Shown here: positions 48,401-54,400 of the stretch, piece after piece
Layout: the number at the start of each line of letters is the position of its first letter
How positions within the stretch are numbered: position 1 is the stretch's first letter
Assembly: GCF_057098645.1 (NCBI RefSeq)
Contig: NZ_CM169472.1
Strand: one strand, 5' to 3'
DNA length: 64,000 bases
Position numbers: made by a program

Positions 48401-51400
48401 CGCTTTATACCGCCATTCCAGCACTTCGGTCAGCGGCATAACGTCAGTAACGGATGGCGGCCAGTGAAAGATGGTGGCGATATCTGCCACCAGATCGTCA
48501 ACCGTCAGGCTGTCGGTAAACCGGCAAGCACCGACTTCTTCAACAAAAAAGTGACAACCTCAACCGACATGGCAGTGAGATCTGCCGGGTCCATCTCTGC
48601 GATTTCCTGTGCAGTCAGTGCCGGACTGGAGATGCGGGGGATCACGGTCATCATCGCGTTCACATCCATATCCATAATGGCCTGCAGGCGTGTGCCGCGC
48701 AGCGCACCGGACTGCGGTTTACGCAGCACAATTTCGGTAATTTCTGTTTTACCGCGCATGATGGGAGTATCCAGTTTAATAGTCTTTTCAGTCTGCTTAT
48801 CGCTCATTTTGCTGTCCTGTAAATTGGGTTCTGGCGCGGCATTCCGCGCCGTTCAGATACATCAGAGGCCGAGGGCGTTGCGGTGCGCTTCCATCAGGTC
48901 CACACCGTCCACAATTTCCACCATGTTGATAAGGTCCACTTCATAGAGCACCTCACCATTGATAGTCAGCTTCGCGTAGCTGTTGGTACTGGTCACTTTG
49001 GTGGTGTTGCTTTCGCCCGTCTTCCACTCGCCGGAATCCACTTCTTTGTGACGTCCACGCACCACAAGCTCCACGGCCTGCACTTCTCCGGTATCGTCAC
49101 GCTGGATAGAGCCGGTGAAGCGCAACTGGATGCCATCCACCGTGGCTTTGCCCATCTGTTTAAACAGCAGCAGTTCAGTACCACCAATGGAAAATTCTGT
49201 GTCCAGCGCACTGTCATCAAGCCCCAGATCCACATCCACTGCACCCGGCATTCCGCCGCCGCGATACTTCTCATATTTGCGGGTGAATTTCGGCAGCGTC
49301 AGCGACTCAACGATCCCCTGCCAGTTGTTCCCGTCATTAAACAGGTTCAGGTGTTTTAATTTGCGTGGTAAAGCCATGTTGTCCCCTTACGCGCTGACCT
49401 GGCTAGAGAAATTCACCAGGTACTGATCGGTGATGCGCTGACGCAGCATCAGGTTTTCAAGTGGCGGCACTGGCGTGTAGTCGTAGTCGATGGTGAGTTT
49501 TCCGGCTTTCAGCGTGTCTTTGTCGTTCACCGACTCATCCAGCCAGCAATCACCACCAATGAGATAGCCCTGACTGACCAGGCTGCGCATTTTGGCGCGG
49601 ATCCCCTCGATAATGTCGCGGGCCAGCGACGGGTTAAGCGGTTTATCCACCGCCCACATGTGTGCTTCTGCCATCGTGTCCATCAGCACCTGCGCCGTGC
49701 GGGTGTAGTTTTCGAAGGCAAAGAGCGGGTCATCACTCAGGCAGCGGGAACCCCAGAAGCGGAAACCGTCTTTACGCACAAGCGTGGTGACGTCGTTCTG
49801 GTTCAGCAGACCTGCATCGGTTGCCGGGTCCTGCAGATCCCAGAACACATCAGCAGAAATTCCGGTGACACCGTTCACGCCCACGTTGGACAGGCTTTTG
49901 TGCCATCCGGTCTGCTCGTCAATTTTGGCGCGCAGACCAAGCGCACGGGCGGTGGCATATGCCGTTGCTTCGGCATTCAGCACCGTGTCCCAGCCAGTAA
50001 AGTCAGGCCAGATCAGCATCCCTTCGCGCTGGCTGAAGTTTTCACGGTAAGTGATCGCCTCCTGTACCGTCTTGCAGCCATACGCTGACAGGTAAGCAAA
50101 TCCACGCAGGCTTTGCGCCACGCTCAGCAACTCAGTAGCTACCGCCTTGGTGTCGTGGCCTGGCACGCCGAGAATGCGCGGTTTAACGCCGAGCTGTGAC
50201 TGGGCAGATAACAGGGCTTTCATGCCTGTTTTTTTACCTTCAGCGGTCACTGCTCCGATGATATTGGTCGTGGTTTCTTCTTCCGTTTCACCCTGCGGCA
50301 CACGCACAACAACGGTCACGGGTTTTGCCTGGTCAGCGATGGCGTCCAGCGAACGGGCCAGCGTACCGGACTCACCCGCTTTACCGCTGGCAGTCAGCAC
50401 ATCAGTGATCAGCACGGGTTTATTAAGAGGAAACATTTTTGCATCGGCATCATCGCCCGTGCAGACCATACCCACGATGGCGGTGCTCACCGTGGTAATG
50501 GATCGGGTGCCTTCGTTGACTTCAACAACGCGCACTCCGTGGTGGTAATCCTGAGCCATAGTGGCGAACCTCCTGATTGGATTAGGCTTCGCCCTATGTT
50601 GAAGTGATTGTGCCTGACAAACAGCTAAGCGCAGTTGTGTCGTTATTCACACAAAATAACGGTATTTGTCCGCTTACAGGAAAAATCAAAATAATGCTGA
50701 CTCAGGGCGATTCATTGTTCTCATTCGCCGGAAATTTTCTATAAATGGTAGAAACGCCCACATCAAAAATCAGTGCAATACGCTGTCTTGATTCTCCGGC
50801 CTCGAGTAAACGTCCAATCTGTGCCCACTGTTCGGTAGTCAACTTAGGACGGCGTCCACCTACTCTGCCTTTAGCACGAGCTGCAGCCAGCCCTGCCCTG
50901 GTACGTTCAACTATCAGTTCGCGTTCCATTTCAGCCAGGGCACCCATGACATGAAAAAAGAAACGGCCCATTGGGGTACTGGTATCAATACTGTCAGTCA
51001 GACTTCTGAAATTCACGCCGCGCTGGCGCAACTCTTCTATCAGAGTAACAAGATGCCGCATACTGCGCCCCAACCTGTCCAGCTTCCAGACAACCAGTGT
51101 GTCACCTGCCGATAGTGTCCTGAGCAGTTTTTTAAGCCCCGGTCGGTCGGACTTCGTGCCGCTGATTTTATCCTCAAAAATCAGCTCACATCCTGCACAC
51201 TCCAGCGCGTTACGCTGCAATTCCGTATTCTGGTCATTTGTTGACACGCGGACATAGCCAATAAGCATGATGGATCCCCTGAATAAAAACCGGGGATGAT
51301 GCCAGTTAGCCGTAATCTCTGCATTTTCTTAAACGTTGGTTTGGGAGAAGCGGCAAAACGAAATGTGGGCAACGGGGAAAACCAAATCCCTGATATGTCT

Positions 51401-54400
51401 TTCTGGACGGTTACTGGTGGCAATGGAAATTTTGTGATTCGTCAACCTGACGGACTAATCATTCAGATGGTTACTGTAAGTATAAGCGGTCCAGTGGCGA
51501 TGAATGGAATGACTGATAATGCTTATGCCATTACAGGTTCTAATAAGTCTTATATTGCCACAGCCACATTGCCCTTTGTATTTCCTAATAAGGTGCTGGG
51601 CGTTATCCCTCTGGTATCAACAACAGCTTATGGTGGTGTATCCAGTAATATTACAGGTTCATACGCGACGGCGGTTTGTTCTTTTGCCGCTGTCAGGGGG
51701 AATAATACGATTGTGTTCAAAGTCGACAAACCACTGAATGCAGCCTTTCCTTCAGATACCAGCGTCTCAGCGTTAATCATTGGACGGTAAGAATGAACTC
51801 AGTATTCTTTTCACCCGCAAGTAAAAGTTTTTATCTGCAAGAATTGTTTCCAGAATATGAGGATGCGGGAACGCTTCCTGATGATGTTATTGAAATTACC
51901 AGAGAAACATATGAGCAATTTCTTGGGCTGCATCCAGAAGGGAAAGAAATTGGCGCTGACAGTTCAGGACGGCCAATATGGATTAATTCCCCGCCGCCTT
52001 CAAAAGAGGATGAGATGCTGGCGGCTGAAATGAAAAAGATATCTTTGGTTTCAGAAGTCAATACCTACATCAATACCCATCAGTGGCCTGGCAAAGCTGC
52101 TATTGGTCGTCTGAAAGGTTACGAGCTGGAACAATATAATTTATGGCTGGATTATCTGGACGCACTGGAACTGGTTGATACCGCCAGTGCTCCAGATATT
52201 GAATGGCCTACGCCTCCGGTAGTTCAGGCCAGATGACATCCGGCGCGGTGCTGGTATCTGTTGCAGTCACCGCGTCAATGTAATCCAGCACAGCGTTAAG
52301 CCGGGTTGTTTCTGCCTGCGTCAGCTTCCGCCCGGCCTGCAATTTCAGCTGAATCAGACTAATGGAAGCCATAGCAGCATCAATCAGTGACTGGCGCCGT
52401 ACTTCTGCCGCGTCTACTGCGGCGTTATGCTGTGCCTCAGTATCGGTCACCCATTTCTCACCATCCCATTTATCGTATGACGTTAACGGGGCGATAGTGG
52501 TTGTATTTTCAGGGTAATCACCCGGAACTGTGATTTCTTTTGATTTTCCTGTTTCGGTGCTATAGACGATTTCACCGCGATGGTCTGGCACATATTCCCA
52601 TGAGTTAAAATCTGCAGAACGGCAAATTGCATAACCAGCTTTATATGAGCCAGGAGCATCTAAACAGGAACATGCCGGGATACCGACACCCACAGCAAGA
52701 TATTCAGTTGATGTGGAAATATATTCCCGTGTTTCACCATCATAATTATAAACGGTAATGTCTCCGGCCTTTGTGGCGATGAGTTCATTATTTAATACAG
52801 CTTTACTTATCATGCAGCCCTCACAATATAATTAAAGGCGATGTTACGGGAGCGGGTTTCAGATGCTGTGCGAACTGAGCGAGATGCGTCGAATGTCCAG
52901 TTATAAGCGCCATAACCCTCAATAATTTCGGCTTCCTTTAGACCTGTAGATAATACTTGCCCATGTTGACTAAATGGCCCTGAACTAAGTACGTCTCTAA
53001 AAAGCTGGGTACGCCCAAAAGAACCAACAATATTCTGAATTGCATCATTCTGTGCAGATAATAAGTTACGACCAGAGTCAATCCCGCGCCCATCATCCCA
53101 GCCACGAATAAATTCACCGCGTAAATCTGGTAATTTTAATGTTGGGTAAGCCTTTGCCAGATTTGGGTACTTTTCAGAAGAAAATGCTGCTCCGTTACAT
53201 TTTAGCCAGCCCGTTGGTGGTGTTTCTAAGGGCCACGGAACGGGCACACCAACAGGCAGTGCAGAGCCTTCCCCCAAACCAAGGTATGCGAGAAGACCAG
53301 CTACATCCTTTCCACTCAAATGAGTCAGCGTCTCATCCAGCGGTTGTTTACCTGCCAGCGCATTAAGCATTGTCGTGGCAAAGTTCGGGTCATTCCCCAG
53401 CGCTGCCGCCAGTTCGTTCAGTGTATCCAGTGCCGCAGGTGCAGAACCCACCATTGCCGCAATCGCCGATTTCACAAATGCCGTGGTGGCAATCTGTGTA
53501 TTGTTGACCGACTGTGCCGCAGTAGGTGCGGTTGGCGTTCCGGTGAGTGCCGGACTCGACAGCGGCGCTTTCAGTGCCAGCGCATTGTTAATGGTGGTAC
53601 TGAATTTCGGATCATTGTTAATGGCTGCGGCTATTTCTTTCAGCGTGTCCAGCGTGGCTGGCGCACCATTAATAAGAGCCGTCAGAGCCGCCTGAACAAA
53701 CGCGGTGGTCGCAATCTGCGTGGTGTTATTCCCTGCGGCTGGCGTTGGCGCTTTGGGTGTCCCGGTAAACGTCGGACTTTCTTTGGGTGCATACTGTGAA
53801 TGCGGGTCCGGTGCGGCAAGATGTTTTGCCATCTGATCATCCGCGTACACCTTCAGCTCCAGTGCCTTGTCATCCACATACTTGCGGGTTGCCAGCACTA
53901 CGGCAGGGTCGATTTTCAGGGTGATATTGTCCGTGCTGCTGGTAATCAGCACCATGCGCACGGTCTGAGTGCGCCCGCTACCTTCAGCCAGTTGCGGCTT
54001 ATAGCTTTCCGGGCAGTTGCCCACGGCAATCAATGCCCCGGACTCATCAAACAAGCCCACTTCACGTATCCACCAACCGCCCTCGTTTTCAGGGATCACC
54101 TGTTCGGCAATAATCTGGCTGCTGTTCTGCAGGTCGATATAGAGCATATTCAGCGCAGCCCGGCGTTTCTCATTTACCAGTGCAGTCTGCTTTGAGTCTG
54201 GCGTTGGCAATACTCCGCCGCCATCGCCGACCGCCATATGGGTAATTTTTAGCGGCACACCGAGCGCGGCGGCGCTGGCAAGTTTCGCCGCGCCAATATC
54301 CGTCAGCAGGGTATAAAATTTTGTGCTCATGGATTCACTCTCATTGTGTCAATAACATGGACCGCCCCGCCTTCATGCGCGGTGCCGCCAGAAATAATTG

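What the first reader, a model, noticed from the sequence alone, without database searches (positions are those of the whole stretch)
50702..54330. Invertible tail-fibre host-range switch (serine invertase plus ~1.9 kb invertible segment) inside a P2-like prophage
A Pin/Gin/Hin-family serine recombinase (50702..51268) lies next to a segment bounded by inverted repeats at 51326..51350 and 53268..53294 (core 16/18 identical, each a dyad around central TT like gix/hix sites). The right repeat is inside tail-fibre gene H at codons encoding AYLGLGEGS; the left repeat starts a promoterless plus-strand frame encoding NVGLGEAAK. The segment holds two convergent modules, each a variable ~150-aa fibre C-terminus plus a cognate assembly chaperone, whose 3' ends overlap by 29 bp. 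Inversion would fuse the constant H N-terminus (~350 aa) to the alternative C-terminus and switch receptor specificity. This architecture is established for Mu G/Gin, P1 C/Cin and e14 P/Pin, whereas canonical P2 carries Z/fun at this position and no invertase. It is the best candidate in this window for an accessory system, though of a known class.
Basis: partly seen in the sequence, partly recalled or inferred. Interest (0 to 1): 0.6.

Follow-up and report, generated by a model that had tools for sequence, protein, structure and literature searches.

The report
Invertible tail-fibre switch, P2-like prophage
A prophage in this E. coli genome carries a long-known kind of DNA flip-switch that swaps the tip of its tail fibre, and so probably which cells it can attach to; the feature is real but ordinary.

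Summary
A 188-aa serine invertase (50702..51268, minus strand) is 85% identical to PinE of e14, 80% to P1 Cin and 76% to Mu Gin. It lies 68 bp from a 1,947-bp segment (51336..53282). The segment is bounded by two 26-bp pix/cix-type sites in inverted orientation, each with a central TT. Only these two sites occur in the 64 kb (0.03 expected by chance).

Flipping the segment in silico fuses residues 1-350 of tail-fibre protein H in frame to a second, 150-aa tip. It also places that tip's own chaperone downstream.

Among complete E. coli genomes, 27 carry the locus as in the window and 19 carry exactly the flipped form. Two sister isolates have identical flanks and opposite orientations.

The same architecture is classical for Mu G/Gin, P1 C/Cin and e14 P/Pin. 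Flipping has been shown experimentally in P2-like prophages of E. coli E2348/69 (PMC4272514).

Verdict: a real and probably active host-range switch of an already known kind. The only mildly unusual points are a rare, uncharacterised silent fibre tip and the prophage's insertion into hchA.

The parts
50702..51268 (-). Serine DNA invertase (Pin/Cin/Gin family), 188 aa
   Evidence: E 1.4e-91 to Gin structure 3uj3. 85% identical to PinE, 80% to Cin, 76% to Gin. PHROG 125 'DNA invertase', E 1e-100. Ser9, Arg42, His106, Lys46/Lys47/Arg50 and Gln150/Arg153/Leu154 are all present.
51179..51250 (.). Putative Fis-dependent recombinational enhancer inside the 5' end of the invertase gene (gene nt 19-90)
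   Evidence: Same gene position as the enhancer annotated in P1 cin, 56/72 identical to it. Synonymous codon identity among six invertase genes is higher here (56%) than in the rest of the gene (40%). The first G-N13-C 15-mer lies 96.5 bp from the crossover centre, against 95.5 bp in Mu, e14 and both EPEC loci. This rests on homology; function was not tested.
51324..51349 (.). Left 26-bp crossover site (pix-like), central TT at 51336-51337
   Evidence: 25/26 identical to the reverse complement of the e14 site next to pinE. One of only two pattern matches in the window.
51336..53282 (.). Invertible segment, 1,947 bp
   Evidence: In-silico inversion gives an in-frame H'. 27 complete E. coli genomes hold this orientation and 19 hold the flipped one. 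Sister isolates differ by inversion at exactly these sites.
51338..51790 (+). Silent alternative fibre tip (150 aa after the crossover). It is read at present only from a 14-codon leader ORF that starts at 51296.
   Evidence: PHROG 12714, 2557, 1396 and 4209 (structural and tail-fibre families). Weak Pfam match to Gp53-like_C. In SW070919 it is fused to H as an annotated CDS.
51793..52236 (+). Silent tail-fibre assembly chaperone (147 aa), cognate to the silent tip
   Evidence: PHROG 188 'tail fiber assembly protein', E 8e-53. 54% identical to TfaP of e14.
52208..52813 (-). Expressed tail-fibre assembly chaperone (201 aa), TfaE-like
   Evidence: PHROG 105, E 6e-98. 90.5% identical to TfaE of e14. 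Its 3' end overlaps the silent chaperone gene by 29 bp, as in e14.
52810..53280 (-). Currently expressed variable tip of H (residues 351-506), carrying a Collar domain
   Evidence: Pfam Collar PF07484 at residues 361-408. 56% identical to StfE of e14. 776 phage records hold relatives.
53269..53294 (.). Right 26-bp crossover site inside gene H, central AA at 53281-53282
   Evidence: The outer half-site is encoded by the constant codons LLAYL and is the same in relatives of both orientations.
53283..54330 (-). Constant N-terminal part of tail-fibre protein H (residues 1-350)
   Evidence: Pfam Phage_tail_fib PF12571 at residues 1-150. PHROG 327. It follows the baseplate genes J and I, as in P2.

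Best explanation
This is a Pin-type site-specific inversion switch for the tail fibre of a P2-like (186-type) prophage of E. coli.

Proposed mechanism:
1. Invertase dimers bind the two 26-bp sites.
2. They synapse with a Fis-bound enhancer that lies in the first ~90 bp of the invertase gene.
3. Both sites are cut at the central TT/AA, one half of the tetramer rotates by 180 degrees, and the ends are religated. This flips 51336..53282.

Gene H is transcribed from the late V operon. Only the cassette that abuts its constant part (residues 1-350) is expressed. In the orientation seen here, H ends in a Collar-domain, StfE-like tip followed by a TfaE-like chaperone. After inversion, H ends in a 150-aa gp53-like tip followed by a TfaP-like chaperone. 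A lysogen population would therefore release two virion types with different receptor specificity.

Shown here: the anatomy, family membership, the in-frame fusion, and both orientations in natural genomes. Inferred: Fis and enhancer dependence, the rate of flipping in this strain, and the change of host range.
For: - Family: the invertase is 85% identical to PinE, 80% to Cin and 76% to Gin, and is intact with catalytic Ser9. It has the residues that PMC3798978 reports as conserved only in Fis/enhancer-dependent invertases: Hin K47, K/R48, K/R51, Q151, R154 and L155, equivalent to K46, K47, R50, Q150, R153 and L154 here.
- Sites: they match pix/cix sites and are unique in the window.
- Geometry: the site-to-enhancer distance is 96.5 bp, against 95.5 bp in Mu, e14 and the EPEC loci. 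The enhancer position is homologous to the annotated P1 cin enhancer.
- Fusion: the in-silico flip is in frame.
- Population: 27 genomes hold the window orientation and 19 hold the flipped one. Isolates 1504D004 and 1604D011 have the same genome length, identical 3.8-kb and 4.1-kb flanks, and opposite orientation, with breakpoints inside the repeats.
- Experiment elsewhere: partly homologous P2-like prophage loci of E2348/69 flip within single colonies (PMC4272514; homology). The e14 P segment, with near-identical repeats, is inverted by PinE (PMC12529663).
Against: - Only one orientation can be seen in a single assembled window, so flipping in this strain is not observed.
- The inner half-sites differ at one base (GGGAGAA against GGGGGAA), and the outer half-site in H has GGTA instead of GGTT. 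Relatives with the same outer half-site occur in both orientations.
- Enhancer conservation cannot be fully separated from coding constraint.
- No consensus promoter was found for the invertase.
- The receptors of both tips are unknown.
Confidence: 0.9

Rival explanations
1. The switch is a frozen relic. The invertase, the sites or the enhancer have decayed, the segment no longer flips in this lineage, and the silent cassette is a fossil.
For: The two closest genomes (99.9% identical, RM14721 and TL012) have the same orientation as the window. There is a one-base difference between the inner half-sites. No consensus promoter was found for the invertase.
Against: The invertase ORF is intact with all signature residues. 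Both silent ORFs are intact. Loci about 97% identical occur in both orientations, H3-H5 against H61-H62. Sister isolates differ in orientation.
Confidence: 0.06
2. The orientation polymorphism among genomes comes from RecA-dependent homologous recombination between the short inverted repeats, or from assembly artefacts, and not from the invertase.
For: The 16 mismatches inside the inverted stretch between the sister isolates show that something besides a clean flip has happened, in the DNA or in the assemblies.
Against: The shared repeat is only about 14-16 bp, which from general knowledge is far below what RecA uses efficiently. Breakpoints coincide with the 26-bp invertase sites. [quoted passage not shown]
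Confidence: 0.02
3. In the lysogen the switch also, or mainly, serves the host. A short leader ORF starting at 51296, outside the segment, reads into whichever cassette faces the invertase. This yields a free receptor-binding tip plus chaperone that could block adsorption of other phages, as claimed for StfE2 of e14.
For: The layout is the same as stfE/StfE2 in e14. The leader ORF gives 164 aa in one orientation and 170 aa in the other. The intergenic and leader region is about 80% identical to that of e14. PMC12529663 reports T2 exclusion by the e14 chimera.
Against: No promoter was found for the plus strand at 51269..51335. The silent tip here is unrelated to the StfP tip that forms StfE2. 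The prophage looks complete and its fibre genes sit in a normal late operon, so the virion role is sufficient. PADLOC gives no hit.
Confidence: 0.05

Closest known systems
e14 cryptic prophage P segment with PinE (E. coli K-12)
   Same: The invertase is 85% identical. The crossover site is 25/26 identical to the e14 site next to pinE. The TfaE chaperone is 90.5% identical. The convergent chaperone genes overlap by the same 29 bp. The spacing between the invertase gene and the site is the same, and the invertase is co-directional with the fibre gene.
   Different: e14 is a defective lambdoid element whose fibre gene is a remnant. Here the segment sits in gene H of an apparently complete P2-like prophage. 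The silent tip is unrelated to StfP, and the silent chaperone is only 54% identical to TfaP.
Phage Mu G segment with Gin
   Same: The order is the same: constant fibre part, site, two convergent tip-plus-chaperone cassettes, site, invertase. The enhancer lies at the 5' end of the invertase gene at the same distance from the site. The invertase is 76% identical.
   Different: The G segment is about 3 kb, with the constant part of S only about 170 aa and much longer variable parts. The central dinucleotide of gix is TC/GA, not TT/AA. The cassettes share no detectable DNA similarity with those here.
Phage P1 C segment with Cin
   Same: The invertase is 80% identical. The central dinucleotide is TT. 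The enhancer is annotated at nt 19-90 of the invertase gene and is 56/72 identical to the sequence here.
   Different: In P1 the 3' end of cin abuts cixL and the fibre gene converges on it. The segment is about 4.2 kb.
Invertible loci in the P2-like prophages of EPEC E2348/69 (Goldberg et al. 2014, PMC4272514)
   Same: The setting is the same: a P2-like tail gene cluster with the invertase between the fibre genes and the sheath or tail genes. One locus has two sites and a segment of about 1.9 kb. Individual stretches are 69-89% identical in DNA, including the start of the Collar-type tip and the chaperone. Flipping was demonstrated by paired-end sequencing and PCR.
   Different: The relationship is mosaic. 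The invertase genes are only about 76% identical in DNA. One EPEC locus has three repeats of 215 bp and four states. The silent tip of the window is absent from both.
Canonical phage P2 (NC_001895)
   Same: The gene order is the same: V W J I H G ... FI FII E T U D ogr.
   Different: P2 has a single H and G, then a terminator and fun(Z) between G and FI, with no invertase. Here that interval holds the second cassette and the invertase. The region upstream of the sheath gene does not align with pF of P2.

Membership tests
Fis/enhancer-dependent serine DNA invertases (Hin/Gin/Cin/Pin) | Small serine recombinase with an N-terminal catalytic domain carrying the nucleophilic Ser and a C-terminal helix-turn-helix domain | tested here: met
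   Aligns over residues 1-183 with Gin structure 3uj3, E 1.4e-91, and the Hin DNA-binding domain 1hcr matches residues 141-183. Ser9, Arg7 and Arg42 are present.
Fis/enhancer-dependent serine DNA invertases (Hin/Gin/Cin/Pin) | Residues reported as conserved only in the invertase subclass: basic helix-B residues (Hin 47, 48, 51) and Fis-contact residues (Hin Q151, R154, L155) | tested here: met
   K46, K47, R50, Q150, R153 and L154 are present, with numbering one lower than in Hin. The criterion comes from PMC3798978.
Fis/enhancer-dependent serine DNA invertases (Hin/Gin/Cin/Pin) | Two 26-bp imperfect-dyad recombination sites in inverted orientation with the same central dinucleotide | tested here: met
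   Sites at 51324..51349 and 53269..53294, central TT/AA, matching the pix and cix sites extracted from e14 and P1.
Fis/enhancer-dependent serine DNA invertases (Hin/Gin/Cin/Pin) | Recombinational enhancer with two Fis sites in cis | tested here: inconclusive
   The homologous position is 56/72 identical to the annotated P1 cin enhancer, and the distance to the site is conserved. Synonymous conservation is raised there. A strict Fis consensus found nothing, even in the known enhancers. Fis binding cannot be tested here.
Fis/enhancer-dependent serine DNA invertases (Hin/Gin/Cin/Pin) | The enzyme actually inverts the segment | tested here: met
   The evidence is indirect. 27 complete genomes hold one orientation and 19 the other. 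Sister isolates with identical flanks have opposite orientation. Catalysis by this particular protein was not tested.
Invertible tail-fibre host-range segments (Mu G, P1 C, e14 P) | Constant fibre N-terminus outside the segment, two alternative C-termini inside it in opposite orientation, both in frame across the crossover | tested here: met
   H is 506 aa and the in-silico H' is 500 aa, sharing residues 1-350. A natural 500-aa H' is 486/500 identical to the prediction.
Invertible tail-fibre host-range segments (Mu G, P1 C, e14 P) | Each alternative tip is followed by its own tail-fibre assembly chaperone | tested here: met
   PHROG 188 and PHROG 105 tail-fibre assembly families. The two chaperones are TfaP-like (54% identical) and TfaE-like (90.5% identical).
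Invertible tail-fibre host-range segments (Mu G, P1 C, e14 P) | The two orientations give virions with different host range | not testable with these tools
   This needs orientation-locked lysogens and plating or adsorption assays.
Multi-site shufflon-type fibre loci (p15B Min; the three-repeat EPEC P2-like locus) | More than two crossover sites, giving more than two arrangements | tested here: not met
   Only two sites are found in 64 kb, even with 3 mismatches allowed.
P2-like (Peduoviridae) prophage | P2 gene order of tail, baseplate, lysis and head genes, with ogr | tested here: met
   Window 43322..64000 is 99.9% identical to the annotated prophage of RM14721, which has ogr, D, U, T, E, FII, FI, H, I, J, W, V, a P2-family capsid protein, GPO scaffold and terminase. 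PHROG assignments agree. The order matches P2.

The most novel reading that the evidence does not exclude
The cassette facing the invertase is not truly silent. It is translated from the conserved 14-codon leader ORF at 51296, together with its chaperone, as a free receptor-binding domain. That domain would occupy a surface receptor of the lysogen and exclude other phages. The switch would then toggle a host-defence phenotype as well as virion host range, generalising the recent PinQ/StfE2 claim from e14 to intact P2-like prophages. The rare gp53-like tip, which has almost no relatives among sequenced phages, would be the effector.
Probability: 0.05. Interest if true: 0.45.

Novelty: already known. 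Interest (0 to 1): 0.1.

Why it matters
It matters little beyond annotation. The locus confirms that P2-like prophages of E. coli commonly fill the G-FI (fun/Z) interval with a Pin-type invertase and a second fibre cassette. Genome assemblies of such strains will differ in orientation for trivial reasons, and gene callers label the silent tip 'hypothetical protein'.

In practice, the predicted proteome of the phage includes two H proteins. The silent tip is a rare, uncharacterised receptor-binding domain that could be of use for host-range engineering.

Tried and rejected
- A strict Fis consensus (G-NN-YR-WWWWW-YR-NN-C) found no site in the first 200 nt of this gene. It also found none in gin, cin or pinE, whose enhancers are established, so the pattern is uninformative.
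- I assigned two G-N13-C 15-mers whose centres are 49 bp apart. I recall 48 bp for Hin, so my register for one site may be off by one. I do not rely on this.
- The synonymous-site test uses non-independent pairs, and 5' ends of genes are often constrained anyway. I treat it as weak support only.
- NCBIfam gave only sub-threshold hits for the invertase and nothing for the four fibre and chaperone proteins. PADLOC gave nothing.
- The promoter scan found no convincing invertase promoter and no plus-strand promoter for the silent cassette.
- The region upstream of the sheath gene does not align with pF of P2.
- The paper on the Fels-2 Fin invertase (PMC1347348) is not held, so Fels-2 is not cited as evidence.
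- The P88 paper does not mention the invertase.
- A shufflon reading was considered and rejected, because there are only two sites.
- I did not run structure prediction of the fibre tips. A monomer model of a trimeric tip was unlikely to change the verdict.
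Full report
**What is there**

The minus strand of window 43.3-64 kb carries the late genes of a P2-like prophage. Window 43322..64000 is 99.9% identical to an annotated prophage of E. 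coli RM14721. That prophage has, in P2 order, ogr, D, U, tape measure, E, tube, sheath, recombinase, fibre genes, I, J, W, V, lysis genes, a P2-family capsid protein, GPO scaffold, terminase and portal. Its early region is 186-like (CI, CII, Fil, DinI-like). PHROG assignments agree.

Five ORFs lie between sheath gene FI (49387..50559) and baseplate gene I (54327..54932):
- a 188-aa recombinase, 50702..51268 (-)
- a 164-aa plus-strand ORF, 51296..51790
- a 147-aa plus-strand ORF, 51793..52236
- a 201-aa minus-strand ORF, 52208..52813
- the 506-aa fibre gene H, 52810..54330 (-)

**The repeats**

The longest inverted repeat of the region is 51324-51350 / 53268-53294. Read as recombination sites, these are two 26-mers:
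- left: TTTTCTTAAACG-TT-GGTTTGGGAGAA (51324..51349)
- right, reverse complement: TTCTCGCATACC-TT-GGTTTGGGGGAA (53269..53294)

Repeat length alone is not remarkable. However, a pix-type pattern with up to three mismatches finds exactly these two places in 64 kb, against 0.03 expected.

I extracted the known sites from the Mu, P1 and e14 records. The left site is 25/26 identical to the reverse complement of the e14 site next to pinE. Both window sites share the AAAC(C/G)-TT-GGTTT core with cixL of P1.

**The proteins**

- The recombinase matches the Gin crystal-structure sequence at E 1.4e-91 over residues 1-183.
- It is 85% identical to PinE, 80% to Cin and 76% to Gin.
- It has Ser9.
- It also has the residues that McLean et al. 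(PMC3798978) describe as conserved only among Fis/enhancer-dependent invertases. These are K46, K47, R50, Q150, R153 and L154 in this numbering.
- H has the P2-type N-terminal fibre domain (PF12571, residues 1-150) and a Collar domain at residues 361-408, just after the crossover.
- The 201-aa protein is 90.5% identical to TfaE of e14. The 147-aa protein is 54% identical to TfaP. Both fall in tail-fibre assembly PHROGs.
- The 164-aa ORF matches structural and tail-fibre PHROGs and, weakly, the Gp53-like C-terminal domain.
- The two chaperone genes converge and overlap by 29 bp, exactly as tfaP and tfaE do in e14.

**The predicted product of inversion**

The central TT is bases 2-3 of a codon at both sites: CTT in H and GTT in the plus-strand frame. 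Inverting 51336..53282 in silico gives a 500-aa H'. It shares residues 1-350 with H and then continues GLGEAAKRNVGNGENQ... to the end of the silent cassette, with the TfaP-like chaperone next in line.

**Does it flip?**

I searched 5,426 complete E. coli genomes with the locus as it stands and with the in-silico flipped version.
- 27 genomes have a co-linear match over at least 80% of the native query.
- 19 genomes have the same for the flipped query.
- At about 97% identity there are full-length single-piece matches of both kinds (H3-H5 against H61-H62).
- In SW070919 the annotated H is 500 aa. It is 486/500 identical to the predicted H', and 149/150 identical in the swapped tip.
- Two pig isolates from the same place, 1504D004 and 1604D011, both have 5,198,112-bp chromosomes. 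They have identical sequence for 3.8 kb and 4.1 kb on either side of the segment. The segment is in opposite orientation, with breakpoints inside the repeats.
- Inside the flipped stretch the two isolates differ at 16 of 1,905 positions. I could not explain this.

Published experiments support flipping in related elements. Goldberg et al. detected co-existing orientations within single colonies for two P2-like prophage loci of EPEC E2348/69 and for e14 (PMC4272514). I fetched both EPEC loci. They have the same layout and share 69-89% identical stretches with the window, including the start of the Collar-type tip, the chaperone and the invertase. Kirigo et al. report that PinE and PinQ invert the e14 P segment at TTGGTTTGGGAGAAGG. 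They also report that pinE and pinE pinQ mutants are locked in one orientation (PMC12529663).

**Mechanism**

The arrangement is that of Mu and e14: constant fibre part, site, two convergent cassettes, site, then the invertase, co-directional with the fibre gene.

The P1 record annotates the Cin enhancer at nt 19-90 of cin. The same stretch of the window gene (51179..51250) is 56/72 identical to it. The first Fis-like 15-mer lies 96.5 bp from the crossover centre, against 95.5 bp in Mu, e14 and both EPEC loci. Codons for identical amino acids are more often identical in this stretch than in the rest of the gene (56% against 40%). This is weak evidence.

I therefore infer the standard invertasome mechanism. 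This covers two invertase dimers, a Fis-bound enhancer, staggered cuts at the central dinucleotide, 180-degree subunit rotation, and expression of only the cassette joined to the late-operon-driven H. Fis dependence, flipping rate and host-range change are inferred, not shown.

**Comparison and novelty**

Canonical P2 has one H and one G, then a terminator and fun(Z) before pF and FI, and no invertase. The window fills that interval with the second cassette and the invertase.

This variant is common:
- Partial matches to the locus occur in 3,129 of 5,426 E. coli genomes.
- Several deposited phage genomes annotate a DNA invertase beside the fibre genes. Examples are Escherichia phage 500465-1, Klebsiella phage KP12 and the 'P2' of O157:H43 T22.

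The system is thus a member of a classical family, in a genomic setting where flipping has already been demonstrated.

**Residual points of interest**

- The silent tip is rare among sequenced phages: 11 of 50,697 records, with a best match of 38% identity over 69% of its length. The expressed Collar-type tip has relatives in 776 records.
- A leader ORF starting at 51296, outside the segment, reads into whichever cassette faces the invertase. This is the layout for which an anti-phage role was recently claimed in e14. I found no promoter for it and rate that reading as unlikely.

Noticed in passing
window 42793..43341 and the prophage end at about 43322-43325: The prophage interrupts hchA. The ORF covers only profile positions 3-183 of 287 of glyoxalase III HchA and ends 17-19 bp into prophage DNA. 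Chromosomal identity to other E. coli stops at window 43324, and none of 5,426 complete genomes has this junction. The 99.9%-identical prophage in RM14721 and TL012 sits next to ybjL instead.
   Followed up: partly
L001 3792..5696 against L002 3792..5696 (NZ_CP149565 and NZ_CP149553): The sister isolates have identical flanks and an inverted segment, but 16 mismatches within the 1,905-bp flipped stretch, all in its central part or towards one end. Possible causes are consensus polishing of a culture with mixed orientations, or exchange with a second related prophage in the same genome. This is not resolved.
   Followed up: partly
window 51338..51790: The silent fibre tip has almost no relatives among 50,697 phage records: 11 records, best 38% identity over 69% of its length. 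Its Pfam match to Gp53-like_C is weak (E 4e-4). It is an uncharacterised receptor-binding domain.
   Followed up: partly
window 51296..51337: An ATG-started 14-codon leader outside the invertible segment is in frame with whichever cassette faces the invertase, giving 164 aa now and 170 aa after inversion. Gene callers annotate it as 'hypothetical protein' or 'phage tail protein'. The layout is the same as stfE in e14.
   Followed up: partly
window 50636..50653: A TGT-N12-ACA dyad (TGTGTCGTTATTCACACA) lies about 85 bp upstream of the sheath gene start. From memory this is the Ogr/Delta-type late-promoter activator site of P2-like phages. The region does not align with pF of P2.
   Followed up: partly
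window 51288..51307, minus strand: A weak terminator-like hairpin followed by TTTATT lies between the left crossover site and the invertase start codon. It could limit read-through from the late fibre operon into the invertase gene. Not tested.
   Followed up: no
NZ_OU342919.1 at 4890954..4894818 and at 7168..11032: One E. coli genome holds two related copies of this locus, one in each orientation (H20, H76). Many genomes have several places matching the query, up to 18, so invertases may act in trans on each other's segments.
   Followed up: no
L001/L002 9260..9829: In the related prophage of 1504D004 and 1604D011 a TIR-domain protein gene sits just beyond baseplate gene V. It is probably an accessory or defence cargo gene that is absent at that position in RM14721.
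   Followed up: no
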